Shown here piece after piece: positions 33,434-50,534 of a stretch of DNA of 64,000 nucleotides. Position numbers and translations under genes: made by a program. Origin of the DNA: Candidatus Lachnoclostridium stercoravium (lineage in GTDB: Bacteria > Bacillota > Clostridia > Lachnospirales > Lachnospiraceae); the NCBI GenBank assembly GCA_019118365.1, contig DWZA01000109.1, positions 54,110 through 118,109 on the forward strand. The letters are read 5' to 3'. The notes under the pieces are model-generated. The model searched no databases and was not told where the DNA came from. It saw only the letters and a program-made list of their open reading frames with translations. Numbering within the stretch: the first letter of the stretch is position 1; every line of letters begins with the position of its first letter.

Positions 33434-33464
33434 TTTTCCATTCTCCTTCTTTTACTGCCGCAGT

Positions 33465-34967
33465 TTAAGCTGCCGCTTTCTGAGCCTTCATTCTTAAAAC
33501 CTCTTTCCGGATCGTCATTGCCAGAGTGAAGACGGCGATGATCAGGAATACGCAGCAGATCGGGGATGTGAGGAACGGGATAAAGCTTCCCTGGCTTCTC
33601 ATCAGGCCTCTGCGCAGGTTGGTTTCCAGGATCGGGCCAAGGATAAAGCCCAGGATCAGCGGAGGCTGCGGATAGTTCAGTTTTTTCATTCCGTAGCCGA
33701 TGACTCCGAAGACTACCATAGCCGCTACGTCAAATACACGGTTATTCGTTCCAAATGCGCCTACTACGCAGAATACGCATACGATGGGAAGAAGCAGATT
33801 TTTCGGTACGGAAAGGATCCGGATAAAGGCGCGGATACCAACGTACTCCACGATCAGCATCATAATGTTGGCTACGATCAGAGCCGCGAAGATACCATAT
33901 ACGAGAACTGCTTCTGAACGGAACAAAAGCGGCCCTGGGGTAATGCCGTGGATCATAAATCCAGCCAGGATCAGCGCTGTTGTGTTGTCTCCAGGAAGGC
34001 CCAGAGTCAGAAGAGGAACAAGGGCGCCGCCGGTGCAGGCGTTATTGGATGACTCGGAAGCAACGATACCGTCTACAACGCCAGTTCCGAATTTCTCCGG
34101 ATACTTGGAGTGGTTCTTTACTACAGAATAGGCGATGATGTTGCAGACGCTGCCTCCAAGTCCGGGAAGGATACCGATACCGGTTCCGATCGCTACGGAC
34201 ACCCAGAAGTTAAAGCCCTGTCCTTTAATATCTTCTCTTGTAAAGCCAAAGCCTTTGATCTTGCAGGCGCGTACCTCCAGGTTCTGTTTCTTGAATTTTT
34301 CTTCGATCGCCGTCAGGACTTCCGCCACAGCGAACAGGCCGATCAGCATAGGAAGGATGTTAAAGCCTGCGTTCAGATCCGTGACCCCGAACGTAAAACG
34401 GGTCAGACTGGTAATAGGGGCGATCCCCACAAAGGACAATGTCATGCCCAGCATAGCCGCGATGATACCTTTTGCCACAGAATCCGAAGCAAGGCTGGCG
34501 ATCATGGTCATGGAGAACAGTGCGATGCCAAAATACTCATAAGCGCTGAACTGAAGGGCTACCTTTGCAATAGCTGGTGCAAGGAACATCAGGACGATAT
34601 AGCTTACAAGTCCGCCGAAGAAGGAGCATACGATACCTACTCCCAATGCTTTCGGCGCTTCGCCTTTCTGGGCCATGGGATAGCCGTCAAATGTGGTTGC
34701 CACAGAAGATGCCGTACCTGGCATTTTCAAAAGGATGGCGGAGATCAGTCCTCCGGACGTACCTCCTATATACAGGGAAACAAGAAGAGACAGACCAGCC
34801 ACCGGCTCCATTCCGAACGTCAGCGGCAGAAACAGCGCGACGCCCATAGTTACGGACAGACCGGGGATCGCTCCCACGATGATCCCCATGATGGTTCCCA
34901 TAAGCATAAGCAGCATGATCTTAATGTCACATATGGATAAAATACCGGCAATAATTTCAGATGACAT
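33465..34967 (-). CDS. tctA: Tripartite tricarboxylate transporter TctA
   Basis: GAIPGL, MPGTASSVATTFDGYPMA, ESSNNA, LTLGLPGD. Confidence 0.95.
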   Translation of the reverse strand: MSSEIIAGILSICDIKIMLLMLMGTIMGIIVGAIPGLSVTMGVALFLPLTFGMEPVAGLSLLVSLYIGGTSGGLISAILLKMPGTASSVATTFDGYPMAQKGEAPKALGVGIVCSFFGGLVSYIVLMFLAPAIAKVALQFSAYEYFGIALFSMTMIASLASDSVAKGIIAAMLGMTLSFVGIAPITSLTRFTFGVTDLNAGFNILPMLIGLFAVAEVLTAIEEKFKKQNLEVRACKIKGFGFTREDIKGQGFNFWVSVAIGTGIGILPGLGGSVCNIIAYSVVKNHSKYPEKFGTGVVDGIVASESSNNACTGGALVPLLTLGLPGDNTTALILAGFMIHGITPGPLLFRSEAVLVYGIFAALIVANIMMLIVEYVGIRAFIRILSVPKNLLLPIVCVFCVVGAFGTNNRVFDVAAMVVFGVIGYGMKKLNYPQPPLILGFILGPILETNLRRGLMRSQGSFIPFLTSPICCVFLIIAVFTLAMTIRKEVLRMKAQKAAA

Positions 34968-34977
34968 AAGCTACCTC

Positions 34978-35442
34978 CTATAAAATCCCGCCTGGAAGAC
35001 GGATCCCAAAAACTTCCGTAAATACAACGTCGACGAATACAACGAGAACAACTGTAATGATCCCGTATTTCACTGGCTTAAAGTTTTCCTTCTTTGTCAT
35101 CAGATAGATCGCCGCGTAAAGGAAAACGATGCTTGTGATAATAAAGCCTACGGACCTGAGCAGAGCGGCATAGGCGATCAGGAAAACAAGCATGATCACA
35201 ACGCCTTTATAATTTGACTTGTATCCCGGATCTTTTTCCGGCTCCTGGGATTTCGCTTCCTTAGCACCCCGATAGGTGATAAAACAAAATGTAATAAACA
35301 TGATCACTGATGCGATCTCTGGAAGAAAGCCGGCGCCGATCCATGAGTCTTCCTGCGAAGCGATCTGTATACTCATGAAAAACATTCCGGCGGAAAATAT
35401 CAGGCCGCATATTCCGCTGACCAGATCTTTATATTTATTCAT
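34978..35442 (-). CDS. tctB: Tripartite tricarboxylate transporter TctB
   Basis: 4 TM, GAGFLP, GFIITS, FGIRLPGG; adjacent to tctA. Confidence 0.88.
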   Translation of the reverse strand: MNKYKDLVSGICGLIFSAGMFFMSIQIASQEDSWIGAGFLPEIASVIMFITFCFITYRGAKEAKSQEPEKDPGYKSNYKGVVIMLVFLIAYAALLRSVGFIITSIVFLYAAIYLMTKKENFKPVKYGIITVVLVVFVDVVFTEVFGIRLPGGIL

Positions 35443-35535
35443 ACTGCGTCCTCCTGTAGTCATTTGACAGCTTTAGAGAGAGGAACCGGCTAAAAAAGCC
35501 GGTTCCGTCCTGTTGTGAAGTATCCTTAGTATGGG

Positions 35536-36513
35536 TTACTGAGCGGCTGTAAACAGATCTTTGTAAGAATTCAGCTGTTCATAAATTTCCTGAGCATATG
35601 TAGTCGCTTCTTCCGGATTCATATAAACAGGTGTTAACGCATAGGAATCCTGAGCTGCTTTTACAAACTCTTCGTTGGCAACTGCTTTTTCCATAGCCGC
35701 GCTGAAGGTATCCACGATCTCGTCCGGAGTCTCTTTCGGGAATGCTACAAAGAAGAATTTTCCGAATTCCATGTTCAGGCCCTGTTCCTTTGCCGTCGGG
35801 ATATCGTCAAACAGCGGGTTTCTCTCTGCGGAAAGAAGAGCTAACGGGATAAATTCGCCTGTTGACAGGTAATCCTTTACCAGAGCGTACTCTACGTTGA
35901 TGATATCTGTGTTATGTCCTGCCAGCGCCGCGATCTTATCTGCGTTGCCGCCGATATCTACAAGATTCAGATCAATTCCCGCTTCTTTTTCCAGAGCCAG
36001 ACCGATCAGCTGCGGATAGCCGCCTACAGCCATACCAAATTCGATCTTGCCTGGATTTGCCTTGGCCTGCTCGATGAACTCGTCCAGAGTAGAGAATCCG
36101 GAATCGTTATGAGTAACCAGGAGAGTGGTATTAGCCTGGAGGCAAACGCCGGCCATCTTAAATTCATCCAGCTGATAATCGATCAGTCCGGAGATCTCTG
36201 GAAGCATGGCCTCTGTATGATAGAACAGGCAGGTATATCCGTCTGGATCAGAAGTCCTTACCTGCTCCATGCCGATGGTTCCTGAGGAACCGGAAACATT
36301 TACGATCGGGATAGATACGTCCAGCTCCGGCTCCATATACTGCGCCAGGAGTCTGGCGTTGGAGTCTGTGTCTCCGCCTGCGCCTACCGGCACGATCATC
36401 TGGACTGCGTCGCTGGGATAAACCTCTTCGCCTTTGCTGCATCCAGTTGCCATCAATGCGGCCATGCTCACTGCAAGGAGCCCTGCTGCTGCTTTCTTCA
36501 TTGTTTTTTTCAT
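35536..36513 (-). CDS. tctC: TctC/Bug family substrate-binding lipoprotein
   Basis: Lipobox ATGC; VPVGAGGDTDSNAR, NVSGSSG. Confidence 0.92.
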   Translation of the reverse strand: MKKTMKKAAAGLLAVSMAALMATGCSKGEEVYPSDAVQMIVPVGAGGDTDSNARLLAQYMEPELDVSIPIVNVSGSSGTIGMEQVRTSDPDGYTCLFYHTEAMLPEISGLIDYQLDEFKMAGVCLQANTTLLVTHNDSGFSTLDEFIEQAKANPGKIEFGMAVGGYPQLIGLALEKEAGIDLNLVDIGGNADKIAALAGHNTDIINVEYALVKDYLSTGEFIPLALLSAERNPLFDDIPTAKEQGLNMEFGKFFFVAFPKETPDEIVDTFSAAMEKAVANEEFVKAAQDSYALTPVYMNPEEATTYAQEIYEQLNSYKDLFTAAQ

Positions 36514-36626
36514 GTTTTTTTCCTCTCTTTCCTCTCTTTTTCTTTTTTGATTGATGTGTTATTTTAACGATTCAGGATCTCTTTCTTCCTGGATTGTTAT
36601 TTTCGAAATATCTGTACTAACTGAGC

Positions 36627-36644
36627 TAACTGTTATAACAGTTA
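36627..36644. promoter_or_regulatory. Probable GntR operator upstream of tctC
   Basis: Perfect 18-bp palindrome TAACTGTTATAACAGTTA, repeated upstream of gntR. Confidence 0.8.
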
Positions 36645-36729
36645 TTGCAAAAAATAAATAAGAGAAGTTTTTTCTCTTTAACAGCCATCCGGTAAGGGGA
36701 TAAATAATCCCACCGGACAGCTCTAACGC

Positions 36730-37443
36730 TTATTTCGTGCCTTCATTCCATGTCGCTTCAATTGCCAGAAGAGAGTCGTTTACGTGGATCCTCATGGCAT
36801 CCTCGGCGGTCTGAGGATCTCCCTCCTTGATCTTATCTACCAGAAGCCTGTGCCAATATCTGGGATACTGACATCCCGGCGCTCTTGAACCTGTTCCCTT
36901 GCACAGGATCCAGAATAGATTGATCTTGCGCAGCGTATCTACCAGAAGAGAATTTCCTGTAAATTCCGTAAGTCTGGTGTGAAAATTCAGGTGCGTATCG
37001 CTTGTGTTCAGCACTGTATTTTCATTGTAAGGGACTGTATCCAGTTCTGTCGCTAACGCCCACAGCACTGCTTCCTGCTCTGCTGTCATATGTTCTGAGA
37101 GATACCTGGCTGACTGACATTCGATCGCTTCTCTCAGCTGATAGCTCTGGCGGATCTTATCCAGCGTAGGAACCGTAACAAACGACCCCCATTGGGGCTT
37201 CGATTCAACCAGCCTGTCATCCTCAAGCCTTTTTAATGCTTCGATGACCGGGATCACGCTGACGCCCGTAGCGTCCGCCATCTTCCTTCGGGAAAGCTTC
37301 ATTCCCGGCGGGAATTCCCCGTTTAAGATCTTCTGGGAGATGATCCTGTAAGCGACATCGGAGGCTGTCTGAAAACCTGCACCTGCCATCGATGTCTCCC
37401 TTTCTCTGTTTAATGTTTTTTCATTATTCTTTTTATTATCCAT
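36730..37443 (-). CDS. GntR (FadR subfamily) transcriptional regulator
   Basis: GEFPPGMKLS, GVSVIPVIEALKRLE, FCD domain with FH...GN. Confidence 0.93.
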   Translation of the reverse strand: MDNKKNNEKTLNRERETSMAGAGFQTASDVAYRIISQKILNGEFPPGMKLSRRKMADATGVSVIPVIEALKRLEDDRLVESKPQWGSFVTVPTLDKIRQSYQLREAIECQSARYLSEHMTAEQEAVLWALATELDTVPYNENTVLNTSDTHLNFHTRLTEFTGNSLLVDTLRKINLFWILCKGTGSRAPGCQYPRYWHRLLVDKIKEGDPQTAEDAMRIHVNDSLLAIEATWNEGTK

Positions 37444-37660: not shown

Positions 37661-38803
37661 TTATTTCTTGATCTCCATGCCGACGCGCACCAGACGGAAC
37701 GCTCTGTCAGCAGCTCCTTTGTAAAGCTCGACTGCGCGGTCCAGCGCCTCTTCAATGTCCATAGCTCCATTGATCGTCGGTATGATACTCTCTACGCCAA
37801 ATTCAAAGATCTTATCAGCGCCTGTGCCCATACCGCCTACGATAGCGATCGCCGGGATACCGTGGTTCTTACATCTCTGTCCGATGCCGCTTGGAACTTT
37901 GCCGAATGCGGACTGCCAGTCGATACGTCCTTCTCCTGTAACTACCATATCAACGCCTTCCAGCAGCTTGTCAAATTCGATCAGATCCAGAACTGTCTCA
38001 ATGCCGGATTTCATATTAGCATTAAGGAATACCTTAAACGCAGCGCCTAATCCGCCTGCCGCGCCTGTTCCTTCGATCTTGTCCACATCAATGCCTGTTT
38101 TCGCCAGGATGATATCTTTGTACTTGATCATGCCTGCTTCCAGGGTATCCAGGATCTCCGGTGTGCCGCCCTTCTGCTTTCCAAAGGTATAGGTAGCTCC
38201 GTCCGGGCCTGTAAGAGGATTGGTAACGTCGCACATTACCGTAAACTCTGTTTCCTTTACTGCCGGGTGAAGGCCGCTCATATCAAAATCAGCAACTTTT
38301 GTCAGGTCAGATCCAACTCCGGATAATACATTGCCCTCTGCGTCAAAGAACTTCACTCCCAGAGCGCTCATAGCTCCCATGCCGCCGTCGTTGGTAGCGC
38401 TTCCGCCGATAGCGATGGAGATCTTTCTGTATCCGCTGTCCAGCGCGTCTTTGATCAGTTCGCCTGTACCATAGGAAGTGGTATTAAGAGGATTTCTCTT
38501 ATCTGTCGGCACCATAGGAAGTCCGGAAGCCGCAGCCATCTCGATAATAGCGGAATCTCCGTTGAACTCGCCGTATGTAGCTTCTGTCTCTTCCATCAGC
38601 GGGCCGTGAACTTTGACCTTCTTGATCGTTCCCTTCGTCACAGCGATAACTGCATCTACAGTTCCCTCGCCGCCGTCCGCCACCGGAACGCCTGCCGTCT
38701 CGCAGCCTGGAAAGATCTTCTCCGCTGATTCTGTCAGCAGCTCGATGATCTTTTCTGAAGATAATGTTCCCTTAAAGGAATCTGAAGCAAATAAAAATTT
38801 CAT
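37661..38803 (-). CDS. garK: Glycerate kinase
   Basis: ASDSFKG, ADGGEGT, GGSATNDGG, FGKQKG, GAAGG, TGEGRID. Confidence 0.95.
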   Translation of the reverse strand: MKFLFASDSFKGTLSSEKIIELLTESAEKIFPGCETAGVPVADGGEGTVDAVIAVTKGTIKKVKVHGPLMEETEATYGEFNGDSAIIEMAAASGLPMVPTDKRNPLNTTSYGTGELIKDALDSGYRKISIAIGGSATNDGGMGAMSALGVKFFDAEGNVLSGVGSDLTKVADFDMSGLHPAVKETEFTVMCDVTNPLTGPDGATYTFGKQKGGTPEILDTLEAGMIKYKDIILAKTGIDVDKIEGTGAAGGLGAAFKVFLNANMKSGIETVLDLIEFDKLLEGVDMVVTGEGRIDWQSAFGKVPSGIGQRCKNHGIPAIAIVGGMGTGADKIFEFGVESIIPTINGAMDIEEALDRAVELYKGAADRAFRLVRVGMEIKK

Positions 38804-38901
38804 AATGCCCTCCAACCTTTCATAATCTCATACATCATTAGTACTATAATACCACAGATTGAGACAGGCGGACAACCAATTTTTCATATTATTTTCTATC
38901 C

Positions 38902-39055: not shown

Positions 39056-39343
39056 CTACTTTTCTCCTATCTCCGCAAAGAACATCTCATAAAAATCATC
39101 CTGACCGTCCAGCTTTGGAGAATTTTCTCCGCCGCCGTTGGTGCTGCGCTTCATGGTCGCATAAAACTCTTCTCCCGCTTCGATCAGGTCCATCTCATAG
39201 ATCTCATATCCCAGTTCCCGGCACAGCCTGCAGAAAGACTCCACCGGATATTTTTCTTTCCTGGTTTCCAGGAAGCGCTGGCGCAGCGCCTCGTCTTTCC
39301 TGGCCATATTTTCCAATTCGATCAGCATAGCAGGTATCGTCAC
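39056..39343 (-). CDS. Hypothetical protein (95 aa)
   Basis: Clean ORF with GGAGGGG RBS and GTG start; acidic C-terminus with STNGGGEN. Confidence 0.7.
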   Translation of the reverse strand: MTIPAMLIELENMARKDEALRQRFLETRKEKYPVESFCRLCRELGYEIYEMDLIEAGEEFYATMKRSTNGGGENSPKLDGQDDFYEMFFAEIGEK

Positions 39344-39497
39344 ACTAACCCCTCCCTCTTTTTTCTGTATCCCATAATACGCAAAGAGGCAACACGTTCC
39401 CGGCCGCGCTGCCTCTTTGCTTTGTATACTTTTTCTAAAGCTATTATACGGAGTTTACCTCAAAAATTCAATATAAAATTATGGTTCCACGATCATG

Positions 39498-39548
39498 GCA
39501 AGCTTGTAACGCTGTTTATCATATATCCTGGCGCACAGCTGAACTGTT
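39498..39548. repeat. Right half of the GTTCAGCC-family element
   Basis: 51 nt with 2 mismatches to 50488-50538; overlaps the stop codon of the LarA-like gene. Confidence 0.9.
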
Positions 39549-40847
39549 ACGCTTTTCTGATTCCATCTCGTCGATCCTCACCAGATCTCCATTCTCTTTA
39601 AACTGCATATCAAACGGCTTCCCTACGATCTGGATCTGCGGATACCTGGCCGCTTCTTCCCAAAGCGCTTCTGATAAAAAAATCCTTCCGATATCCAGTG
39701 TATTTTTTATCCATATCATTTTAGGCCTCTCATAATCAATACCCATACATCCATTGATCGCCGTCTGTATTGCTACCCTGTCGTTATCAACTACCATTGG
39801 CATCTTCGCGGAATTATAGATTCTGGACGTGATCAGGTTCGGGTAGGTATTCATAAAATCAATGGCATCCCTATATTTTTCCGGAACCACGTCCAGAAGC
39901 CCCATGCCGCAGGCATTTCCATGAGTCTCTTCCGTCAGGCGCAGGCCGCAGATCATCTGCTGATGCGCATCTTTTGGAATGCCGTCATGGGTATACCTGG
40001 AAATGATCATGGTATCCATACCAGCCCCGCTGATATTTTTCCCTGTTTCCTCTACCAGCAGTACGTCGTAGCTGGGAATAACGATCTTAGGAAAATTCTG
40101 ATATGCTTTTTTCAGCAGCAGCGGCTCTTTTTCCAAAATTTCCGCTGCCTTTATCACATGGATCTCCGCAGTTTCGTCATAGGCGTTTTCAATCAGGCCC
40201 ACTCCAAAGAGCACTGGGGTATGTTCCAAAATAAATCTTCCGATCTTCTGGATATTTTCCGACATATTTACCATACCCAGGCTATGGCATAACGCTGCTC
40301 CCTTCTGTTTGCCCAGTCCGATAACAGCCATCTTTAACAGGCCGCTTTCAACCGGACCATTAAAAGATGGATGTGGTTTGATCCGGTTGACCAGGACAAT
40401 GCCGTCGGATTCCAAAGCATATCTGTCCACATATACCGGCAGACCGTCTGGTTCTGTCCTGCCAATGCAGACCGTATCCATAGAGGCCAGGATCGGACAG
40501 CCGCAGCTTTCCTCTGTAATGCCAAGAGAAGCCAGAACCTCAGCCTGCCCCTGAGCTGTAGCCCCGCCGTGGCTCCCCATAGCTGGTATGATAAAGGGTT
40601 CCCCGCCTTTTTCCCGGATAAAACTGGCAATTTCACTGATAACCAGGGCGATGTTATCGATTCCCCTGCTTCCTGCCGTAATAGCAATGCGGCCGCCCGG
40701 CCTGACCGAAGCGCCTGCGCCGGAAAGCTCCAGCCTTTTACGGATTTCGGCTTTCGGATCTTCCACTTTCGGCCTTGGAAATATCTGTCTTGCTTCCACC
40801 ATTCTGGGAATTTTAATATGGGAAACCAGTTCTGCCAATCTGCTCAT
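39519..40847 (-). CDS. LarA superfamily (lactate racemase domain) protein
   Basis: AITAGSRGI, PAMGSHGGATAQGQ, NRIKPH, ESGLLKM..IGLGKQKGA, GMDT, NACGMG. Confidence 0.82.
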   Translation of the reverse strand: MSRLAELVSHIKIPRMVEARQIFPRPKVEDPKAEIRKRLELSGAGASVRPGGRIAITAGSRGIDNIALVISEIASFIREKGGEPFIIPAMGSHGGATAQGQAEVLASLGITEESCGCPILASMDTVCIGRTEPDGLPVYVDRYALESDGIVLVNRIKPHPSFNGPVESGLLKMAVIGLGKQKGAALCHSLGMVNMSENIQKIGRFILEHTPVLFGVGLIENAYDETAEIHVIKAAEILEKEPLLLKKAYQNFPKIVIPSYDVLLVEETGKNISGAGMDTMIISRYTHDGIPKDAHQQMICGLRLTEETHGNACGMGLLDVVPEKYRDAIDFMNTYPNLITSRIYNSAKMPMVVDNDRVAIQTAINGCMGIDYERPKMIWIKNTLDIGRIFLSEALWEEAARYPQIQIVGKPFDMQFKENGDLVRIDEMESEKRNSSAVRQDI

Positions 40848-40865
40848 AGTCCGTCCTTTCTCCGC

Positions 40866-42161
40866 TCAGCCGATCTTTCCTACGCCGATCAGATTGCCCT
40901 CTTCGTCAAATTTCATTTCTTCCGGTTCTGATTCGATCACAAGGCGCGGATTTTTCTTTGCCTCCTCGTAATACGCTTCTGAAAGCATGATATGTTCTAC
41001 CTGGAGGCTATTGGCGATGCGGACGATCCGCACGTTGTCTTTATCGATGCCGGTGCAGGTGCGGATGCAGACCTGGATGGCTTCCTTATCATTTTTCATT
41101 ACCATAGGCACTCTGGCATTTTCTACCACTGTGGACGTGATCAGGTTCGGATAAGTCAGGTCAAAATCCACTTTGTCGAAAAATCTCCTGGTAGTGGCGT
41201 GAGCCATTCCCATGCCGCAGCCGCTGTGATGGCTTTCCTTGCTCAGATCCAGGATCGCCACTCTCTGAGACTTCAGTCCGCCGCTTGCGTAAGGCGTGAC
41301 AAAAGTTCCTGTGATATTGGGATCCATGCCGCTTCCGCTGAAATTCTTTCCGATCACATCGCAGATAAGTACGTCGCATTCCGGCACCACGATACAGGGT
41401 AAAAGCTGCTTTGCCTCTTCCAGAAGGGCCGGCTCCCAGTCCTCGATCTCGTCGTGGTTTACCACTGCGATCTTTGCCGTCTCATCGTAGGCGTTTTCCA
41501 GGACTGCTACGGCAAAAAGGATATTGACATGCTTTAAGATCGCCCGGCCGAACATGGGCACATATTTTGCCATCTGCCCAAATCCTGCTTCATGGCATAC
41601 TTCTGCTCCGGCCTGCTTGCCAAGGCCGATGGTCATCATTTTCATAATGCCGCTTTCATACGGGCCTCGGAAGCATGTATGGGGTTTGATCCGGCAGTTG
41701 ACGATGATGCCGTCCGCTTCTGCGGCGTCCCTTCCGATCAGCACGTCCATCCCTTCTTCATTGACGCCGATCTTTACCACTTCCATGCTGCATTTTACCG
41801 GACAGCCCATAGATTCTTCAGTCACCCCATAATTTTTAAGGATCTCCCTCTGCCCTTCTTCCGTGGCTCCGCCGTGGCTTCCCATGGCGGCTACGATAAA
41901 CGGTTTTCCGCCCTTTTCCTTTACAAAATCCACGATCGTTTTTGTGATCGTCAGGATATTGGCGATCTGGCGGCTCCCTACGGTGATCGCCACGGTCATC
42001 CCCGGTTTGATCTGGGAGGCAAATTTTTCTTCATTCATCTTCTCTCCCAGGATCTCCGGGATCTGATCCGCCTCGATCCTGTCCTCCGGAAATATCTGCC
42101 TCACCTGAAACATCCGGGGGATCTTCACATTTTCTACCAAGCTCGATACCACGCTCTTCAT
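40866..42161 (-). CDS. LarA superfamily (lactate racemase domain) protein, paralog
   Basis: AITVGSRQI, AMGSHGGATEEGQ, RIKPH, ESGIMKM..IGLGKQAGA, GMDPN. Confidence 0.82.
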   Translation of the reverse strand: MKSVVSSLVENVKIPRMFQVRQIFPEDRIEADQIPEILGEKMNEEKFASQIKPGMTVAITVGSRQIANILTITKTIVDFVKEKGGKPFIVAAMGSHGGATEEGQREILKNYGVTEESMGCPVKCSMEVVKIGVNEEGMDVLIGRDAAEADGIIVNCRIKPHTCFRGPYESGIMKMMTIGLGKQAGAEVCHEAGFGQMAKYVPMFGRAILKHVNILFAVAVLENAYDETAKIAVVNHDEIEDWEPALLEEAKQLLPCIVVPECDVLICDVIGKNFSGSGMDPNITGTFVTPYASGGLKSQRVAILDLSKESHHSGCGMGMAHATTRRFFDKVDFDLTYPNLITSTVVENARVPMVMKNDKEAIQVCIRTCTGIDKDNVRIVRIANSLQVEHIMLSEAYYEEAKKNPRLVIESEPEEMKFDEEGNLIGVGKIG

Positions 42162-42334
42162 ATTCTGTCCCTTGCCTTTCTTTGCTGTCTGTTACCCGGC
42201 AAATGTCTTTCCCTGCAGATGCGGCGGCAGATTTCCGGGTATATTGCCAGAAAAGGCGCTGCTAAAAATAGCAGCGCCTCCTTTGGGTCAATCTTCTGGA
42301 GAACTTATGGTCTGCGTCAGCAGACCTTTACATC

Positions 42335-43378
42335 TTACTGCGCTTCCAGCTCATCAGCGATAGCTTTGATCGTATTGAAAGTTTCTTCTTCTGTCTTCTC
42401 TGTATCTGCCGGGCTCTTATAGTTCGGTTCCATCTGGAGATCTGCAAGAGCCTGCTTGCCTTCCTCGCTGTCTAAGATCTGCTTAACCAGGTTGTCGTAC
42501 CATGTGATAACCTCGTCTGGTGTTTCCTTCGGGAAGTAGAAGGAGAATTCCTGGTTCGGATAGGAGTAGTCGATACCCTGTTCTTTCAGTGTTGGAAGAT
42601 CCTTTGTGATATCGTATCTCTCTTCTGTCGGAACGCCGATGCAGGTGAAGTCGCCTGTTTCAAGGTAATCCTTGCAGTTTACATACGGGCCAGGCATTAA
42701 GTCGATCTGTCCGGAAAGCATAGCTGCGATCTTATCGGATGTAGAACCTGCGTCTACAAGGTCAAGGTCGATGCCTGCAGCTTTCTCGAATCCAAGAAGC
42801 TCATAATATGTATAAGCGCCAACCTCTGTACATGCCTTTAACTGGCCAGGAGCAGCCTTTGCAGCCTCGATAAAGGAATCCAGATCCGGATATTTGTCTG
42901 TAAAGGTGTAGAACTGCTGTGCCGGCTCAAGAGCGAAGCTTGGTCCGATCTTGAATGCTGTGTAGTTGTAATCTGTAACGCCTGCGATGTTCGCAACGTT
43001 TACAAGAGCGTGGCCGTAAAGGCAGGTCATGCCGTCCGGAGCGGACTCCAGAACCTGGTTAGCTGCTACAGAACCAGCGGCGCCATTGGAGTTTACAACG
43101 ATGAAGTCAACGCCTGTCAGCTCTTTTGCGTACTGTGCGAATACACGTGCGGAAAGGTCTGTGTCTCCGCCTGCTCCTGCAGGTACTACGATAGATACAG
43201 TTCCTTCTGGTTTCCAGTCGCTTGCTGCCGCTGCATCGCCGCCCTCTGCTGCGGCTTCGCTTCCGGACTCAGCTGCCGGAGCTGCTGTTGTTTCAGAAGC
43301 TGTCTCAGATCCGCCGCAGGCTGCCAGGCTGAGAGCCATGGTTCCTGCCAGAATAGTTGCCAGGATTTTCTTTTTCAT
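42335..43378 (-). CDS. tctC: TctC/Bug family substrate-binding lipoprotein
   Basis: Lipobox LAAC, Ala/Glu-rich linker, VPAGAGGDTDLSAR. Confidence 0.92.
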   Translation of the reverse strand: MKKKILATILAGTMALSLAACGGSETASETTAAPAAESGSEAAAEGGDAAAASDWKPEGTVSIVVPAGAGGDTDLSARVFAQYAKELTGVDFIVVNSNGAAGSVAANQVLESAPDGMTCLYGHALVNVANIAGVTDYNYTAFKIGPSFALEPAQQFYTFTDKYPDLDSFIEAAKAAPGQLKACTEVGAYTYYELLGFEKAAGIDLDLVDAGSTSDKIAAMLSGQIDLMPGPYVNCKDYLETGDFTCIGVPTEERYDITKDLPTLKEQGIDYSYPNQEFSFYFPKETPDEVITWYDNLVKQILDSEEGKQALADLQMEPNYKSPADTEKTEEETFNTIKAIADELEAQ

Positions 43379-43442: not shown

Positions 43443-44960
43443 TTACGTGATCGGCGCCGGATTGAAAATGCACAGATCGTTGCACAGATTATACTGCTCT
43501 GCGAAAGGTTTCTTCCTGCCGCTGGCCACGTCGATGATCTCGTTAAACAGCAGTGTTCCGATGTCGGCGATAGTAGCGTCTCCCGTAGCGATCGGGCCTG
43601 CGCATACATCGATCAGATCCGGCCACTGTTCCTTCATATCATTTCTGGAACATACTTTGATCACCGGGGCGATCGCAAGGCCGTAAGGCGTTCCGCGTCC
43701 TGTCATAAATACCTGAAGTCCGATGCCGGAAGCCAGCTGGCACGGTCCGCAGACAATATCGCTTGCAGGCGTAGCCGCATAGATCAGGCCGTGTTTCGTA
43801 GGCTTTTCTCCTGGGGAAAGGACTTCCACGATCGGAGAGGTTCCGGATTTTGCGATGGAACCCATGGCCTTTTCCACGATATTGGCAAGGCCTCCTTTTT
43901 TATTGCCGGGAGTCGGGTTGGCGCTGCGGTCTACTTCTCCTTCTTTCAGGTAGTTGTCGTACCACTTCATCTCAGCTGCCAGCTTTTTGCCCACCTCTTC
44001 ATTGATACAGCGGTGAGCCAGGAGGTAAACTCCGTCCCGGACTTCAGTTACTTCTGAAAACATTACTGTAGCTCCGCCTTTTACCAGCATATCCGCCGCA
44101 TAGCCTGCGGATGGATTGGCCGTTACGCCGGAGAAGGCGTCGCTTCCGCCGCACTGCATACCGATAAGAAGATCGGATAAAGGAAGAGTCTCCCTCTTTC
44201 TCTCGTTTAAGATCTTAAGCTTCTTATCCGCCATTTCCATCAGCGCGTCGATCATAGCCTGAAAGCCCTGTTTTTCCTGAAGGACGATCACGTTCTCCGG
44301 GCTGATATCGGCTTCGTCCAGAAGCTTTTCTACTGTAAGCTTCTCACATCCCAGGCTGACTACCATCAGCTGGCCGCCGAAATTCGGATGCTTTGCCAGG
44401 TTTCTTAAAGAACGGATGGGAACCACCGCCTCCGGAGCGTTGATAGCAACGCCGCAGCCGTAAGCATGGTTGATCGGCACGATAGCGTCTACGTTGGGAT
44501 ACTTTGGAAGAAGCTCTTTTCTCATCTTCTCAACCGCCACGTTCAGCACGCCGGTCACGCACTGTACTGTGGTGGAAATGCCCAGGATATTCCTGGTCCC
44601 TGCCGGGCCGCCCCACGGATTCCGATAGCCTTCCCAGGTCTTTACCGGAGGCTCTGGAAGATCTGTCACGATATTAGTGGCAAATTCCATATTGTCTACA
44701 TCCGGCGGAGTGGGAAGCTCCAGCATAAACTCATTGATCCAGTCGCCTTTTTTGATCTCTTCCAGGGCATAGCCTAAAACTACGCCGTAGCGGATCACAG
44801 GTTCTCCCTTAGGGATATCCTGGAGGGCGATCTTATGAGCCTGTGGGATGTCATGGCGGGCGGTCACGCCCTCCATGACTTCTGTTCCTGCTTTGATCTC
44901 GTTTACCGCGATCGCCACATTATCTTCGTCTTTGATCTTTACATATAAAGGAATGCTCAT
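43443..44960 (-). CDS. garD: Galactarate dehydratase (SAF + UxaA/GarD)
   Basis: DNVAIA, HKIAL, GTRNILGI, HAYGCG, QCGGSDAFSG, NPTPGNKKGG, FNPAPIT. Confidence 0.93.
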   Translation of the reverse strand: MSIPLYVKIKDEDNVAIAVNEIKAGTEVMEGVTARHDIPQAHKIALQDIPKGEPVIRYGVVLGYALEEIKKGDWINEFMLELPTPPDVDNMEFATNIVTDLPEPPVKTWEGYRNPWGGPAGTRNILGISTTVQCVTGVLNVAVEKMRKELLPKYPNVDAIVPINHAYGCGVAINAPEAVVPIRSLRNLAKHPNFGGQLMVVSLGCEKLTVEKLLDEADISPENVIVLQEKQGFQAMIDALMEMADKKLKILNERKRETLPLSDLLIGMQCGGSDAFSGVTANPSAGYAADMLVKGGATVMFSEVTEVRDGVYLLAHRCINEEVGKKLAAEMKWYDNYLKEGEVDRSANPTPGNKKGGLANIVEKAMGSIAKSGTSPIVEVLSPGEKPTKHGLIYAATPASDIVCGPCQLASGIGLQVFMTGRGTPYGLAIAPVIKVCSRNDMKEQWPDLIDVCAGPIATGDATIADIGTLLFNEIIDVASGRKKPFAEQYNLCNDLCIFNPAPIT

Positions 44961-44977: not shown

Positions 44978-46483
44978 TTACGCCGCTTTCTTTTTCTTCA
45001 GGTAAGCGCGGTATTCTTTATACATCGTCCATACGAGAACGCCGATAGCGATAAAGAAGAACGCATCGAAGATCGGTCTTTCAAAGAATGCTCCAAAGGA
45101 CTTGTACTGCATGATGCCTCGTCTTAAGTATGTCTCCAGCATTTCCCCGATCAGGAAGCACAGTACGAACGGGGTCGTCGGCAGGCTGAACTTGTGGTAC
45201 AGATAGCCGATCACGCCGAATACCAGTACAGACTGTACGTCGAAGATACGGTTGTTGGTAGCGTACGCGCCTACGCAGCACAGTACCAGGATCAGCGGAA
45301 GCAGGATGTGCTTCGGCACCTTTAATACCTGTACGAAGCCTTTGATACAGGTCCATTCTACGATCAGCATGATGAACGCGCAGATCATACATGCAGCGAA
45401 GATTCCATATACAACGTCCGCATTCTTTACGAACAGCAGCGGGCCTGCGGAAAGTCCGTGGATCAGGAAGCCGCCTAACATCATAGCCGTAACGCCGTCT
45501 CCTGGGATACCAAGTACCAGCAGCGGGATCATGGCTCCGCCGATGGTGGCGTTGTTTGCAGACTCAGTAGCTACGATACCGTCCGGGCAGCCTTTACCAA
45601 AGCGCTCCGGATATTTGGACATATTTCTCGCTGTTACGTATGCCAGCATACCGGAGGTGGAACCGCCGATACCAGGCAGGATACCGATACCGGTACCGAT
45701 CAGAGAAGAACGTACGAAGTTCGGCAGATGGTGTACAAATTCCTGCCAGCTGAAGCCAAAGCCTTTTACTTTTTTGACTGCCAGCGTCTCTACCTTGCCG
45801 CCCTTCATGCTCTCTGCAGTGATCAGGATATCGGAGATAGCGAAGATACCGATCAGGGTAGGAAGAGTATCAAAACCAGCCATCAGGCTGCTGTTTCCAA
45901 AGGTAAATCTTGCAGTACCGTCGATAGGAGCCATGCCGATCAGGGTGAACATCAGTCCCAGCATACCGGCCAGGATACCACGGAGCATATTTCCGGAAGA
46001 AAGGATGGCCACCATGGTCAGGGCGAAGAAGCAGATACCGAAGTTCTCCGCCGGCGTGAACTTCAGGGCGATGTCCGCTAAGGACGGCGCGCAGAAGGTC
46101 AGGATGATAAAGGAAAATACTGAGCCAAGGAACGAGAACACGATACCAAGTCCCAAAGCTTTCATGGCCTCGCCGTTCTGGGCCATGGGGTAGCCGTCAA
46201 AGGTAGTGGCGATAGACGAGGCCGTACCTGGCATGTTCAGCAGGATGGCCGAGATCAGACCGCCGGAGATACCGCCGATGTAAACGGCTACTAATGTGTT
46301 CAGGCCCATGGAAGGCGTCATGCTGAAAGTCAGAGGCAGCATGAGCGCTACCGCCATTGAAGCGGACAGGCCTGGGATAGATCCAAATACGATACCGATG
46401 GCAACGCCGGCCACCATCATGGCCAGAGACGCCGGTGTACAAACGCTGACGTACGCGTTTCCTAACATTGCTAATGCTTCCAT
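44978..46483 (-). CDS. tctA: Tripartite tricarboxylate transporter TctA
   Basis: MPGTASSIATTFDGYPMA, ESANNA, LGIPGD. Confidence 0.95.
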   Translation of the reverse strand: MEALAMLGNAYVSVCTPASLAMMVAGVAIGIVFGSIPGLSASMAVALMLPLTFSMTPSMGLNTLVAVYIGGISGGLISAILLNMPGTASSIATTFDGYPMAQNGEAMKALGLGIVFSFLGSVFSFIILTFCAPSLADIALKFTPAENFGICFFALTMVAILSSGNMLRGILAGMLGLMFTLIGMAPIDGTARFTFGNSSLMAGFDTLPTLIGIFAISDILITAESMKGGKVETLAVKKVKGFGFSWQEFVHHLPNFVRSSLIGTGIGILPGIGGSTSGMLAYVTARNMSKYPERFGKGCPDGIVATESANNATIGGAMIPLLVLGIPGDGVTAMMLGGFLIHGLSAGPLLFVKNADVVYGIFAACMICAFIMLIVEWTCIKGFVQVLKVPKHILLPLILVLCCVGAYATNNRIFDVQSVLVFGVIGYLYHKFSLPTTPFVLCFLIGEMLETYLRRGIMQYKSFGAFFERPIFDAFFFIAIGVLVWTMYKEYRAYLKKKKAA

Positions 46484-46494
46484 ACTTCCACCTC

Positions 46495-46992
46495 CTATAA
46501 GTTGATCGTAAAGATACCTGCCGGCAGCACGATCTTGAACCCGTAACGGAACAGGAAGAATACTACCAGGGTAAATACAACGTTCAGGACAGCCAGTTTG
46601 ATGATGTCCGCTTTTGTCCTCTTGTCATCCGGGGACAGGACGATCATCTGGGCCATCAGGTAAACCAGCGTGGAAATAAGGAATCCTACCGGCTGGAGGA
46701 TGAACACGTAGATCAGCACCAGGATGATACTTAAGAGCACGCGCTTGTAATCGCAGTCCGGAATGGAAGCCGGGTCGATCTCAGCGATGCGCAGCTTCAT
46801 ATTTTTTACATTTAAGAATGTCAGGAGCGCTGCCAGGATAAAGCTGACGGCGCCGATACACATAGGCATGAAATCCGGTCCGATCTCCATGACCTTGGAC
46901 TTTGGCAGCAACTGGGCGCCGATCATGATCGCTGCAGAGAGAGCCATAAAGAACACGCCTACAACGATGTCTCCATACTTTTTGAAGAACAT
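46495..46992 (-). CDS. tctB: Tripartite tricarboxylate transporter TctB
   Basis: IGPDFMP, GFLIST, FKIVLPAG. Confidence 0.88.
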   Translation of the reverse strand: MFFKKYGDIVVGVFFMALSAAIMIGAQLLPKSKVMEIGPDFMPMCIGAVSFILAALLTFLNVKNMKLRIAEIDPASIPDCDYKRVLLSIILVLIYVFILQPVGFLISTLVYLMAQMIVLSPDDKRTKADIIKLAVLNVVFTLVVFFLFRYGFKIVLPAGIFTINL

Positions 46993-47221: not shown

Positions 47222-48550
47222 TTATCGTACCAGGCACGGACGCTTCGGATCAAACTTCCATCCTGGGATCAGGTACTGCATTCCCACAGCGTCGTCTCTT
47301 CCGCCCAGGCAGTTGTCCAGGTAAAGCTGATGGGCTTTGTGGATCTGGTCCATATCCACTTCGATGCCAAGGCCAGGCTTCTTCGGAACCGCCACGCAGC
47401 CGTCTACGATCTGAAGCGGTTCTTTTGTCAGGCGCTCCAGGCCTTCCTGCCAGATCCAGTGGGTATCCAGGGCGTTGTATTCTCCTGGAACTGCGGCGCC
47501 TACCTGTGTGAACATAGCCAGGGAGATATCAAAATGGTTGTTGGAATGGGATCCCCATGTATATCCGAAATCATGGCACATCTGAGCTACGCGCACAGAT
47601 CCGCTCATAGTCCAGAAATGCGGGTCAGCCAGGATGATGTCCACTGCCTGGGACTCCAGGGAATGGCCAACTTCTCTCCAGTCTGTAGCGATCATGTTGG
47701 TCGCTGTCGGGAAACCGGTGCGGCGTCTGAATTCGCTCATGATCTCTCTTCCGGAGTAAACGCCTTCAGCTCCGCAGGGATCTTCGCAATATGTAAGAAT
47801 GCCCTTCATGCCCTTTACGTACTCGATGGCATCCTTTAACAGCCAGCCTCCGTTCGGGTCCAGGTCGATCCTGGCATCCGGAAATTCTTTCTTTAACGCG
47901 CGGATCACATCCATCTCTTCATTTCCCGGAAGGACGCCGCCCTTCAGCTTGAAGTCCTGGAAACCGTATTTTTCTTTTGTCGCTTTTGCGAAAGCCACGA
48001 TCTTGTCTGCTGTCAGAGCTTCCTCGTGACGAATCCTGTACCATTCGCAGTCGGAATCCGGTTCGGAATCATATGGGAGGTCTGTCTTGTTCCTGTCCCC
48101 CACAAAGAACAAGTAGCCTAACATCCTTACCTTGTCTCTCTGCTGTCCGTCTCCTAAAAGCTCGCAGACCGGCACCTCCAGATATTTTCCAAGTAGATCC
48201 AGACACGGCGCTTCGATAGCGGTGATCACATGGACTCCTGTACGCAGGTCAAAAGTCTGGTTTCCTCTCACGTCCTCTTCGCCCTTGCTGTCCAGATACT
48301 TTTTCACCTTTAACAGCGTGCTCTTATACTCGCTGACCTTTGTTCCTTCTACTAACGGGATACATTCTTCCAGAGCTTTTGTGATCTTCTGACCTCCTGG
48401 AACTTCTCCTACTCCCAGTTCCCCGTTGTCTGCGTGAAGGATCACTACGTTTCTTGTAAAGTAGGGTGCATGGGCTCCGCTCAAGTTCAGTTCCATGCAA
48501 TCCTTGCCCGCTACTGGATAAACTTCCATTTTTGTGATAATCGGTGACAT
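47222..48550 (-). CDS. gudD: Glucarate dehydratase (enolase superfamily)
   Basis: [50 protein letters not shown]. Confidence 0.95.
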
Positions 48551-48720
48551 ATTGTGCTCCTTTCCCAAGCTGAAAGCTGTCATATTTCTGCACAACTCTC
48601 TTGATTTTTCTTGATATTATTGTATAAAATAAATATATCTTAGTCAAATTAATTAATTTGTGTTATTTACTTAGTAAAACTTATTTACAAAATTTTAACA
48701 GCGCAAAGAAGGAGGCTCCT

Positions 48721-50391: not shown

Positions 50392-50534
50392 GTTCAGCCG
50401 TATATCTTCCCTCCAGCACAGAATGTGCTGGAGGGAAGCCTGGGATGTCATCCCTATGCCAGGATATATGGTAAATCGCTTTTACAAGCAAGCTTGTAAC
50501 GCTCTTTATCATATATCCTGGCGCACGGCTGAAC
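50392..50534. repeat. Full-length composite GTTCAGCCG...CGGCTGAAC element (143 bp)
   Basis: Terminal IR; hairpin 1 shared with the 27670 copy; right half shared with the 39498 copy. Confidence 0.92.

What the first reader, a model, noticed from the sequence alone, without database searches (positions are those of the whole stretch)
39519..42161. Tandem LarA-family paralogs inside the gudD-garD operon: candidate aldarate epimerases
Seen: two divergent LarA-like genes follow tctC; the second looks AT-richer, suggesting a separate origin. No larB/C/E is in the window. Established: the LarA superfamily uses the nickel-pincer cofactor to racemise or epimerise alpha-hydroxy acids, including D-gluconate 2-epimerase. 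Inference: these proteins epimerise C2/C5 of hexarates (e.g. mannarate or altrarate) to feed GudD and GarD, widening the substrate range.
Basis: partly seen in the sequence, partly recalled or inferred. Interest (0 to 1): 0.65.

Follow-up and report, generated by a model that had tools for sequence, protein, structure and literature searches.

The report
Paired nickel-pincer epimerase genes beside aldarate dehydratases
Two old, diverged copies of an uncharacterised branch of the nickel-cofactor "mirror-image converting" LarA enzymes sit behind the glucarate and galactarate dehydratase genes of a gut Lachnospiraceae bacterium, and most likely reshape unusual sugar diacids so those dehydratases can use them, though no enzyme of this branch has been assayed.

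Summary
Window 40866..42161 (A, 431 aa) and 39519..40847 (B, 442 aa), both on the minus strand, encode two LarA-superfamily proteins that are 45% identical. Both score above the curated cut-off of NCBIfam NF052515, "NPN-dependent isomerase, group 22". This is Group 22 of Desguin et al. 2020, whose function is unknown.

- **Cofactor and fold:** both keep the residues equivalent to LarA R75, H108, H174, K184 and H200. Both model confidently as LarA folds. The genome carries nik-larB-larC-larE on another contig.
- **Origin:** they are ancient paralogs from separate, well-supported clades, not a recent duplication.
- **A-type context:** among 94 family loci, true GarD or GudD neighbours occur only in A's subclade and one related subclade (12 of 22 against 0 of 64). 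These subclades are also enriched for TctABC transporters.
- **B-type context:** B-type is rarer. It has changed residues that are near-invariant elsewhere in the family. In 4 of 8 loci it sits beside an A-type gene.

I found no paper linking this group to aldarates. This is a solid, directly testable lead of moderate novelty: an orphan subfamily of a known enzyme kind.

The parts
40866..42161 (-). larAH-A: LarA-superfamily group-22 protein, 431 aa. R64, H96, H161, K174 and H190 are equivalent to LarA R75, H108, H174, K184 and H200. H312 and H321 are specific to its subclade.
   Evidence: NF052515 at 537 bits against a 400 cut-off. AF2 pLDDT 89.5, and the top 19 PDB fold hits are all LarA-family. 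Residues. Clade and context.
39519..40847 (-). larAH-B: second group-22 paralog, 442 aa. R61, H93, H159, K172 and H188 are kept. The active-site loop is remodelled (GAGMDTMIISRYTHDG). The family's R165 equivalent is lost; R284 and R342 are gained (A positions 286 and 344). The last ~10 codons come from a repeat.
   Evidence: NF052515 at 512 bits. 45% identical to A. AF2 pLDDT 90.6, top 16 PDB fold hits all LarA-family, tail 425-442 of low confidence. Clade-specific residues.
42243..42292 (-). Strong hairpin followed by UUUUCU between tctC and larAH-A. Probably a partial terminator or attenuator.
   Evidence: dG -29 kcal/mol, z -5.86, 0 of 200 shuffles fold as well. Sequence.
39381..39420 (-). 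Hairpin after larAH-B; likely the end of the transcription unit.
   Evidence: dG -32.9 kcal/mol, z -6.34. Inverted repeat I1.
42335..43378 (-). tctC: periplasmic or solute-binding receptor of a TTT transporter. Orthologues at 68-83% identity lie beside A-type genes in other genomes.
   Evidence: Pfam TctC at 71 bits. Synteny in L015, L019, L022, L096 and L103.
43443..44960 (-). garD: galactarate dehydratase.
   Evidence: TIGR03248 at 775.7 bits against a 730.85 cut-off. SAF, GD_AH_second and GD_AH_C domains.
44978..46992 (-). tctB (46495..46992) and tctA (44978..46483): membrane parts of the TTT transporter.
   Evidence: Pfam TctA at 504 bits and TctB at 76 bits.
47222..48595 (-). gudD: glucarate dehydratase homologue. 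The true start is probably M16 (48550).
   Evidence: 802 bits to PDB 4hyr 'glucarate dehydratase', 680 to E. coli GudD 1ec7, 591 to GudX. TIGR03247 at 731.7 bits, below the 828.7 cut-off.
48658..49641 (+). Divergent LysR-type regulator. It is conserved (81% identity) in the syntenic locus L019.
   Evidence: Pfam HTH_1 and LysR_substrate. Synteny.
37661..38815 (-). Glycerate kinase, the last step of the aldolase route for aldarates. It has its own promoter-like site.
   Evidence: TIGR00045 at 426 bits. Promoter-like site 38875..38846.
32630..37443 (-). GntR/FCD regulator (36730..37443), second tctC-tctB-tctA set (33465..36513) and an HpcH/HpaI-family aldolase (32630..33433; only a weak GarL match).

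Best explanation
[quoted passage not shown] Proposed mechanism, by analogy with LarA: NPN is held by Arg64/61, Lys174/172 and His190/188 (A/B numbering). It abstracts a hydride from C2 of a 2-hydroxy acid. The two histidines, 96/93 and 161/159, shuttle the proton on either face, so the hydride returns to the opposite face and the stereocentre is inverted.

Proposed substrates: six-carbon sugar diacids (hexarates) imported by the co-encoded TctABC system. The enzymes would invert the carbon next to a carboxylate. Stereoisomers that GudD and GarD cannot dehydrate would then become D-glucarate/L-idarate or galactarate. Candidates are D-mannarate, D- or L-talarate (= altrarate) and allarate.

Downstream route: the products go on to 5-keto-4-deoxyglucarate, then to pyruvate plus tartronate semialdehyde, then to glycerate (GarR and a DHDPS-type aldolase on contig C79), and finally to glycerate kinase in the window.

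A-type is the core aldarate-linked epimerase. B-type is a rarer partner with a remodelled substrate pocket, which handles a different isomer or the other end of the molecule.

Shown here: family membership, fold, residue conservation, presence of larBCE, ancient paralogy and clade-specific gene context. Inferred: NPN use, epimerase chemistry, substrate class and the division of labour.
For: - **Family:** both proteins score above the NF052515 cut-off. The family equals Desguin Group 22, whose members carry the same AMGSHGG and RIKPH motifs.
- **Fold:** the AF2 models have pLDDT 89.5 and 90.6. Every significant PDB fold hit is a LarA-family structure.
- **Residues:** R, H, H, K and H are invariant in 24- and 26-sequence alignments and in all clades. 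The K-to-H spacing of 16 matches LarA K184-H200.
- **Cofactor genes:** nik-like ABC genes followed by larB, larC and larE lie on C92. In the family sample, 9 of 10 genomes with group 22 have LarB, against 75 of 141 without (p=0.04).
- **Context:** GarD (>=57% identity) or GudD (>=54%) lies within 8 kb in 12 of 22 loci of A's subclade plus its 13-row relative. The figure is 0 of 64 elsewhere (p=4e-9). Tct is present in 15 of 22 against 12 of 64.
- **Informative single loci:** L015 has tctC-A-tctBA and A-gudD. L017 has gudD-A-tct beside GntR, a DHDPS aldolase, GarR and GlxK. L014 has A-tctBAC, a GarL-like aldolase and garD.
- **A/B partnership:** it recurs in L019 (tandem; 92% and 78% identity), L103 (A-LysR-B; 78% and 59%) and L096.
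- **Divergence between A and B:** the 35 fixed differences between the clades cluster in the loops equivalent to LarA 175/176 and 294-298, which set substrate specificity.
- **Pathway:** it is completed by GarR and an aldolase on C79.
Against: - No group-22 member has a known activity.
- The family lacks LarA K298 (T284 in A, I282 in B) and D72. Desguin et al. say loss of K298 might signal a different hydride-transfer reaction.
- GudD and GarD need no epimerase for glucarate or galactarate. The proposed extra isomers are not known to be abundant in the gut.
- Some A-subclade loci (L022, L103, L026) show only tctC and no dehydratase within reach.
- B-type has no aldarate context of its own. It occurs alone in L020, L102 and L104.
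- A hairpin separates A and B from garD-tctC.
- LarB is common in the family (84 of 151 genomes). The same-genus genome has it without group 22, so its presence here is weak evidence.
- The context counts are not phylogenetically independent, and many contigs are short.
Confidence: 0.5

Rival explanations
1. They are NPN-dependent epimerases of a different sugar acid: a hexonate, a hexuronate-derived acid, or the keto-deoxy product of the dehydratases. Their position near gudD and garD would then reflect a shared regulon for mixed sugar acids, not hexarates as substrates.
For: The sister Blautia subclade (63-66% identical to A) sits with a GntP permease, a Zn-dependent dehydrogenase, a mannitol-dehydrogenase-family enzyme and a UxaA-like dehydratase. 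That is a hexonate/hexuronate setting. Twenty other family loci lie beside UxaA-like rather than GarD enzymes. Desguin Table S1 lists SDR, dihydroxy-acid dehydratase, TRAP, sugar kinase and UxaC as the neighbours of Group 22.
Against: Within A's subclade and its 13-row relative, the neighbours are true GarD or GudD orthologues and TTT transporters, not hexonate genes. In L015 the gene lies inside the tct operon and next to gudD. The aldolase step destroys the stereocentres of keto-deoxy-glucarate, so epimerising that compound would serve no purpose (inference).
Confidence: 0.2
2. They use NPN for a hydride-transfer reaction other than C2 inversion, for example moving the carbonyl (2-hydroxy to 3-oxo isomerisation) or a redox-neutral rearrangement of a sugar diacid.
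For: Group 22 lacks the equivalents of LarA K298 and D72. Desguin et al. note that groups missing such residues may catalyse other hydride-mediated reactions. NCBI names the family only 'isomerase'. NPN chemistry beyond racemisation is now documented (NphT).
Against: Both catalytic histidines, which are needed only for two-faced proton transfer, are invariant in all clades. All characterised LarA homologues with both histidines are racemases or epimerases.
Confidence: 0.15
3. Only A is a working enzyme. B is a redundant, decaying or non-catalytic partner, such as a regulatory or structural subunit of a heteromer with A.
For: B-type has changed residues that are near-invariant in the family: R165 to S/N/C, N282 to M, G285 to S. 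It scores below the Pfam Lar_N threshold. It has a repeat-derived C-terminal tail of low model confidence. Half of the B-type loci lie beside an A-type gene.
Against: All five cofactor and catalytic residues are invariant in the B clade. The B-specific substitutions are themselves fixed (>=88%) across the clade, which indicates purifying selection on a new pocket. B stays intact where A is reduced to a ~100-residue remnant (L096). B also occurs alone.
Confidence: 0.1
4. They are ordinary lactate, malate or tartrate racemases that lie next to a dicarboxylate transporter by coincidence.
For: TTT systems carry small di- and tricarboxylates. LarAH group 5 (Mar1, a malate racemase) is likewise tabulated with COG2721 dehydratases and TctC/TctA.
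Against: Scores against the curated models are far below cut-off: LarA 19.8 against 460, and malate racemase 38 against 500. The specificity positions are T/C and L/I in A, and P/S and L/I in B. They are not F,F,W,E/Q (lactate) nor H/Q,K (malate).
Confidence: 0.05

Closest known systems
LarAH 'Group 22' of the LarA superfamily (Desguin et al. 2020, Sci Rep, PMC7583248), equal to NCBIfam NF052515 'nickel pincer cofactor-dependent isomerase, group 22'
   Same: Both window proteins exceed the curated HMM cut-off. They share the AMGSHGG, RIKPH and GLGK(Q/H)...H motifs of the listed members Rxyl_2987 and Bcoa_1745. They show the same pattern at the LarA reference positions: R75, H108, H174, K184 and H200 kept; D72 and K298 not kept.
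   Different: The published group has no assigned function. Its tabulated neighbours are SDR, dihydroxy-acid dehydratase, TRAP, sugar kinases and UxaC. Here, one subclade is tied to GarD, GudD and TctABC, and two deeply diverged members are paired.
D-gluconate 2-epimerases GntE1/GntE2 (LarAH19 and LarAH20; Corynebacterium glutamicum, Thermotoga maritima)
   Same: They are NPN-dependent C2 epimerases of a six-carbon sugar acid that feed a dehydratase or kinase pathway. The manno-to-gluco inversion proposed here for D-mannarate to D-glucarate is the diacid analogue. Desguin et al. speculated that GntE1 might really act on D-glucarate/D-mannarate.
   Different: They belong to a different phylogenetic group. 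The GntE signature E, V, A, H at LarA positions 175, 176, 358 and 359 is absent here (T, C, L, I in A). Identity to solved LarA-family structures, including 4nar from T. maritima, is only 13-17%.
Lactate racemase LarA of Lactiplantibacillus plantarum (PDB 5HUQ) with LarB, LarC and LarE
   Same: Same two-domain fold. Same cofactor-tethering Lys and Ni-ligand His with spacing 16. Same two catalytic His. The same biosynthetic genes are present in the genome.
   Different: About 14% identity, with no phmmer hit to any PDB chain. The lactate-binding K298 and Q295 are replaced. NF033504 scores 19.8 bits against a 460 cut-off. The lar genes are not adjacent to A and B.
E. coli gud/gar D-glucarate and galactarate pathway (GudD, GarD, GarL, GarR, GarK)
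   Same: GarD is above its equivalog cut-off, GudD is a close homologue, and glycerate kinase is in the window. GarR is elsewhere in the genome.
   Different: The E. coli pathway has no epimerase, and it uses MFS permeases (GudP, GarP) rather than TTT transporters. Here the aldolase is probably of DHDPS type or a distant HpcH type rather than GarL.

Membership tests
LarA superfamily (NPN-dependent 2-hydroxy-acid racemases/epimerases) | Two-domain LarA fold | tested here: met
   AF2 models have pLDDT 89.5 (A) and 90.6 (B). Foldseek against PDB gives only LarA-family structures as the top 19 (A) and top 16 (B) hits, E 1e-10 to 1e-7, TM 0.43-0.56.
LarA superfamily (NPN-dependent 2-hydroxy-acid racemases/epimerases) | Two catalytic histidines (LarA H108 and H174) | tested here: met
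   A has H96 and H161; B has H93 and H159. The profile alignment to 2yjg puts them on H108 and H174. The Desguin dataset gives H,H for Group 22. They are invariant in all clades.
LarA superfamily (NPN-dependent 2-hydroxy-acid racemases/epimerases) | NPN-binding residues R75, K184 (thioamide tether) and H200 (Ni ligand) | tested here: met
   A has R64, K174 and H190; B has R61, K172 and H188. All are invariant, and the K-to-H spacing of 16 matches LarA. The Desguin dataset gives R, K, H. The assignment rests on alignment, not on structural superposition.
LarA superfamily (NPN-dependent 2-hydroxy-acid racemases/epimerases) | Substrate-carboxylate residues Q295 and K298, and D72 | tested here: not met
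   Group 22 has A at D72, T at Q295 and I at K298. Here A has P281/T284 and B has T279/I282. These are not universal in the superfamily, and the authors flag their loss as a possible sign of different chemistry.
LarA superfamily (NPN-dependent 2-hydroxy-acid racemases/epimerases) | Pfam Lar_N (PF09861) above the gathering score | tested here: inconclusive
   A scores 44.9 bits (passes 23.3). B scores 20.8 bits (fails). A also matches the clan relative DUF362.
LarA superfamily (NPN-dependent 2-hydroxy-acid racemases/epimerases) | larB, larC and larE present in the genome | tested here: met
   C92 carries LarB (299.5 bits, cut-off 175), LarC1 and LarC2 domains (202 and 151 bits) and LarE (265.6 bits, cut-off 150). 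They lie directly after nikABCDE-like genes.
LarA superfamily (NPN-dependent 2-hydroxy-acid racemases/epimerases) | Bound Ni-pincer cofactor and racemase/epimerase activity | not testable with these tools
   Requires protein purification, metal and mass-spectrometry analysis, and assays.
NCBIfam NF052515 / Desguin Group 22 | Full-length HMM score above the curated cut-off (400 bits) | tested here: met
   A 536.9 bits; B 511.9 bits; both match profile positions 1 to ~391 of 392. They are the only two such genes in the genome.
Lactate racemase sensu stricto (NF033504) | Equivalog HMM above 460 bits; F,F,W,E/Q at LarA 175, 176, 358 and 359 | tested here: not met
   A scores 19.8 bits and B has no hit. 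The residues are T,C,L,I in A and P,S,L,I in B.
Malate racemases (LarAH5/6; NF052593, NF052595) | Equivalog HMM above cut-off; H/Q and K at LarA 358 and 359 | tested here: not met
   38.1 and 19.5 bits against cut-offs of 500 and 462. L/I stand at those positions.
D-gluconate 2-epimerases (GntE) | E,V,A,H at LarA 175, 176, 358 and 359; membership of groups 19/20 | tested here: not met
   The signature is absent. The proteins fall in Group 22.
Glucarate/galactarate catabolic cluster (gud/gar type) | GarD and GudD dehydratases plus downstream aldolase, tartronate-semialdehyde reductase and glycerate kinase | tested here: met
   GarD is above its cut-off. The GudD homologue scores 802 and 680 bits to solved glucarate dehydratases but is below the TIGR03247 cut-off. 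GlxK is in the window. GarR is above its cut-off and lies with a DHDPS-type aldolase on C79. No true GarL was found; the HpcH-family protein scores only 60 bits.

The most novel reading that the evidence does not exclude
The A-type subclade of Group 22 would be the first nickel-pincer enzymes acting on aldaric acids: a hexarate 2-epimerase converting manno to gluco and talo to galacto configurations. B-type would be a neofunctionalised partner with a rebuilt pocket that inverts a different isomer or the other end of the molecule. Together with a dedicated TTT importer, they would form an 'invert, then dehydrate' funnel. It would let anaerobes in three phyla channel every alpha-epimer of a hexarate set into just two dehydratases, GudD and GarD.
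Probability: 0.35. Interest if true: 0.65.

Novelty: new variant of a known kind. Interest (0 to 1): 0.5.

Why it matters
About half of the LarA superfamily still has no assigned substrate, and Group 22 is one of its large orphan branches: each query returned more than 7,000 scored relatives at E <= 0.001 in the metagenome protein set.

The clade-specific link to GarD, GudD and TctABC narrows the search to a handful of obtainable compounds. It also gives a coupled assay, because the dehydratases convert the product to a ketone that is easy to detect.

If the idea is confirmed, three things follow:
- nickel-pincer chemistry would extend to sugar diacids;
- it would explain why glucarate/galactarate loci of gut and rumen anaerobes carry a nickel-dependent enzyme, and so add a nickel requirement to that pathway;
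- it would supply stereo-inverting biocatalysts for aldaric acids, which are platform chemicals.

The A/B pair also offers a natural example of specificity divergence within a single active-site scaffold.

Tried and rejected
- **Direct sequence search of A against PDB:** no hit. A 24-sequence profile gave only a marginal hit to 2yjg (E 0.19). Fold and residue assignment therefore rest on AF2 plus Foldseek and on the published Group 22 residue table.
- **Recent tandem duplication:** rejected. A and B fall in different clades, each with support of at least 99.
- **Foreign origin of B from base composition:** not supported. The 3-point GC difference lies within the spread of neighbouring genes.
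- **'larBCE exist only to serve A and B':** rejected. LarB is in 84 of 151 genomes of the family, including the same-genus genome that has no group 22.
- **Is the gudD homologue really a GudX-type protein?** It is closer to solved GudD than to GudX.
- **Literature:** searches for LarA with mannarate, glucarate or galactarate dehydratase, and for DUF2088 with dehydratase, found nothing beyond one speculative sentence about GntE1.
- **Model coordinates:** not available in the Python box, so no superposition on 5HUQ or pocket analysis could be done.
- **Extra context look-ups:** those for B-type relatives L021, L102 and L104 were uninformative.
Full report
**What is there**

On the minus strand the window carries, in order:
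- a gudD homologue (47222..48595; the true start is probably M16);
- tctB (46495..46992);
- tctA (44978..46483);
- garD (43443..44960; TIGR03248 at 775.7 bits, above its cut-off);
- tctC (42335..43378);
- ORF A (40866..42161, 431 aa);
- ORF B (39519..40847, 442 aa).

A divergent LysR gene lies upstream. Downstream of B come a hairpin, a small unannotated ORF, glycerate kinase with its own promoter-like site, a GntR/FCD regulator, a second tctCBA set and an HpcH-family aldolase.

A and B are 45% identical over their full length. They are separated by 18 nt containing a GAAAGGA ribosome-binding site. A strong hairpin (dG -29 kcal/mol, z -5.9, then UUUUCU) lies between tctC and A. The pair is therefore either read through from garD-tctC at a reduced level or forms its own unit. 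The consensus scan found no promoter in that gap.

**Family**

Both proteins exceed the curated cut-off of NCBIfam NF052515, "nickel pincer cofactor-dependent isomerase, group 22" (537 and 512 bits against 400). Matches to Pfam Lar_N are weak: 44.9 bits for A, and 20.8 bits for B, which is below threshold. Curated models for lactate racemase, malate racemases and LarAH10 score far below their cut-offs.

The supplementary dataset of Desguin et al. 2020 (PMC7583248) lists "Group 22" members (Rxyl_2987, Bcoa_1745, Cagg_0419) with the same AMGSHGG, RIKPH and GLGK motifs. It gives their residues at the LarA reference positions as follows:

| LarA position | Residue in Group 22 |
|---|---|
| D72 | A |
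| R75 | R |
| H108 | H |
| H174 | H |
| K184 | K |
| H200 | H |
| Q295 | T |
| K298 | I |

In that paper the group has 20 members and "unknown function". Its neighbours are SDR, dihydroxy-acid dehydratase, LarE, TRAP transporters, sugar kinases, IclR and UxaC.

In the window proteins the equivalents are R64, H96, H161, K174 and H190 in A, and R61, H93, H159, K172 and H188 in B. All are invariant in two alignments of 24 and 26 diverse relatives and in every clade examined. The Lys-to-His spacing of 16 matches LarA K184-H200.

Sequence search against PDB finds nothing, and a profile finds only a marginal hit to 2yjg. AlphaFold models are confident (pLDDT 89.5 and 90.6). Their only significant structural neighbours are LarA-family structures: 7s91, 9q3j, 9q3k, 2yjg, 9eia, 6d6z, 5huq and 4nar, at 13-17% identity.

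**Cofactor supply**

The genome has 3.0 Mb in 109 contigs and is 94% complete. On contig C92 it carries larB, larC (both domains) and larE, all above curated cut-offs, directly after a nikABCDE-like importer. A and B are the only LarA-superfamily genes detected in the genome.

In a sample of 151 genomes of the same family, 10 have group 22 and 9 of those have LarB. LarB is also present in 75 of the 141 without group 22, including the same-genus genome. Its presence is therefore necessary but not specific.

**Paralogy**

In a 125-sequence tree, A sits in a 31-member clade (support 99) and B sits in a separate 16-member clade (support 99) on the other side of the midpoint. A second tree built from genomic loci gives the same picture. 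The two genes are old paralogs, not a local duplication.

B is slightly AT-richer (48.6% against 51.6% GC), but this lies within the spread of neighbouring genes.

B-type relatives are far fewer than A-type. About 18 clusters lie above 55% identity, after which identity drops to the family background of about 50%.

**Gene context**

I fetched 80 genomic loci with family members and 14 more via exact-protein look-ups. I searched them with the window's own proteins and mapped the result on the tree.

True GarD (>=57% identity) or GudD (>=54%) orthologues within 8 kb occur as follows:
- 6 of 9 loci in A's subclade;
- 6 of 13 loci in a neighbouring subclade that includes Synergistaceae, Acidaminococcus, Treponemataceae, Oceanispirochaeta, Lachnoclostridium and Christensenella;
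- 0 of 64 other loci, apart from B genes that sit next to an A gene (Fisher p = 4e-9).

Tct genes are also enriched, at 15 of 22 against 12 of 64. These counts are not phylogenetically independent, and many contigs are short.

Individual loci are informative:
- **L019:** fully syntenic with the window (LysR, gudD, tctB, tctA, garD, tctC, then A at 92% and B at 78% identity).
- **L014:** A, tctBAC, a GarL-like aldolase and garD.
- **L015:** tctC-A-tctB-tctA, plus a second A next to gudD.
- **L017 (Caproiciproducens):** gudD, A and tct, opposite a GntR regulator, a DHDPS-type aldolase, GarR (above cut-off) and glycerate kinase.

The third subclade of the same 27-member clade (Blautia, Mediterraneibacter) sits instead with a GntP permease, a Zn-dependent dehydrogenase, a mannitol-dehydrogenase-family enzyme and a UxaA-like dehydratase. 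That is a hexonate/hexuronate setting.

The own genome completes the aldarate route with GarR and a DHDPS-type aldolase on contig C79. The gudD homologue is closer to solved glucarate dehydratases (802 bits to 4hyr, 680 to E. coli GudD) than to GudX (591).

**The B partner**

Of eight B-clade loci, four lie beside an A-type gene:
- the window;
- L019, in tandem;
- L103, arranged A-LysR-B, with A at 78% and B at 59% identity;
- L096, where A is reduced to its last ~100 residues while B is intact.

One further locus lies with a LysR gene and an enolase-superfamily acid-sugar dehydratase. Three are uninformative.

A-clade and B-clade differ at 35 positions that are fixed within each clade. These cluster in the segments equivalent to LarA F175/F176 and Y294-K298. 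The LarA literature treats F175/F176 as specificity determinants and lists the 294-298 positions among likely substrate-recognition residues. In the second segment, A reads GSGMDPNITGTFVTPY and B reads GAGMDTMIISRYTHDG.

B-type has replaced residues that are near-invariant elsewhere: R165, N282 and G285 in A numbering. It has gained R at A positions 286 and 344. A's subclade has two histidines of its own (H312 and H321), where the other clades have G at 312 and mostly D or S at 321.

This pattern fits two active enzymes with different pockets better than it fits a decaying copy.

**Interpretation**

The best reading is that A and B are NPN-dependent 2-hydroxy-acid epimerases for six-carbon sugar diacids taken up by the TTT system. 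A is the core aldarate-linked enzyme and B is a specialised partner.

Stereochemical bookkeeping (my own reasoning) gives two closed sets under inversion at the carbons next to the carboxylates:
- D-glucarate, D-mannarate and L-idarate;
- galactarate, D-talarate, L-talarate and allarate.

One dehydratase per set plus alpha-epimerases would therefore funnel all members of both sets. The manno-to-gluco and talo-to-galacto inversions share the same local configuration at C2 and C3. This could explain why A-type genes pair with either GudD or GarD.

None of this has been tested. The family lacks LarA K298 and D72, so a different hydride-transfer reaction cannot be excluded. No paper I could search links the group to aldarates. 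The nearest statement is a speculation that GntE1 might epimerise D-glucarate to D-mannarate.

Earlier notes of this scan report LarA-like genes beside UxaA/GarD-type dehydratases in other genomes. I treat them as leads only.

**Verdict**

This is a new variant within a known enzyme kind, with a clear experimental path.

Noticed in passing
window 39498-39548 and 50488-50538: A 51-bp repeat (49 of 51 identical; 0 matches expected by chance) overlaps the 3' end of larAH-B. It supplies B's last ~10 codons (…NSSAVRQDI-stop), which explains why B is about 10-14 residues longer than its orthologues. The tail has low model confidence.
   Followed up: partly
window 39056-39343 (-): A 95-aa ORF with a GGGAGGGG ribosome-binding site and a promoter-like TTGAAT-17-TATAAT upstream lies between larAH-B and glycerate kinase. 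It has no Pfam hit, and its function is unknown.
   Followed up: partly
L096 1273-1794: In a Eubacteriales MAG the A-type gene between tctC and B is reduced to its C-terminal ~100 residues (79% identical to A 331-424), while B is intact. This is either a natural loss of A or an assembly artefact.
   Followed up: partly
own genome, contig C92 (L006 1019-9300): A nikABCDE-like ABC importer is directly followed by larB, larC and larE in one same-strand gene string. The lar genes are nowhere near their only detectable LarA-family clients on C70.
   Followed up: yes
family-level genome sample: LarB is present in 84 of 151 genomes of this bacterial family, but group-22 LarAH in only 10. The same-genus genome has LarB without group 22, so other NPN clients must be common in these bacteria.
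   Followed up: no
own genome, contig C79 (L108 2020-8026): A sigma-54 PrpR-like activator, a transporter, GarR (above cut-off) and a DHDPS-family aldolase form a cluster. The same GarR and DHDPS-aldolase pair occurs in the Caproiciproducens aldarate locus. This suggests that Clostridia use a class I aldolase instead of GarL for keto-deoxy-glucarate.
   Followed up: partly
L011-L013 (Blautia) 3395-11284: The closest non-aldarate relatives of A form an operon of Zn-dependent dehydrogenase, GntP permease and LarAH, opposite GntR, a mannitol-dehydrogenase-family gene and a UxaA-like dehydratase. It resembles an L-galactonate-type route with an added epimerase.
   Followed up: no
window 47222-48595 (-): The longest ORF of the gudD homologue starts at a TTG 15 codons upstream of the residue where all homologues and solved structures begin (MSPIITK…). 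The real start is probably at 48550.
   Followed up: partly
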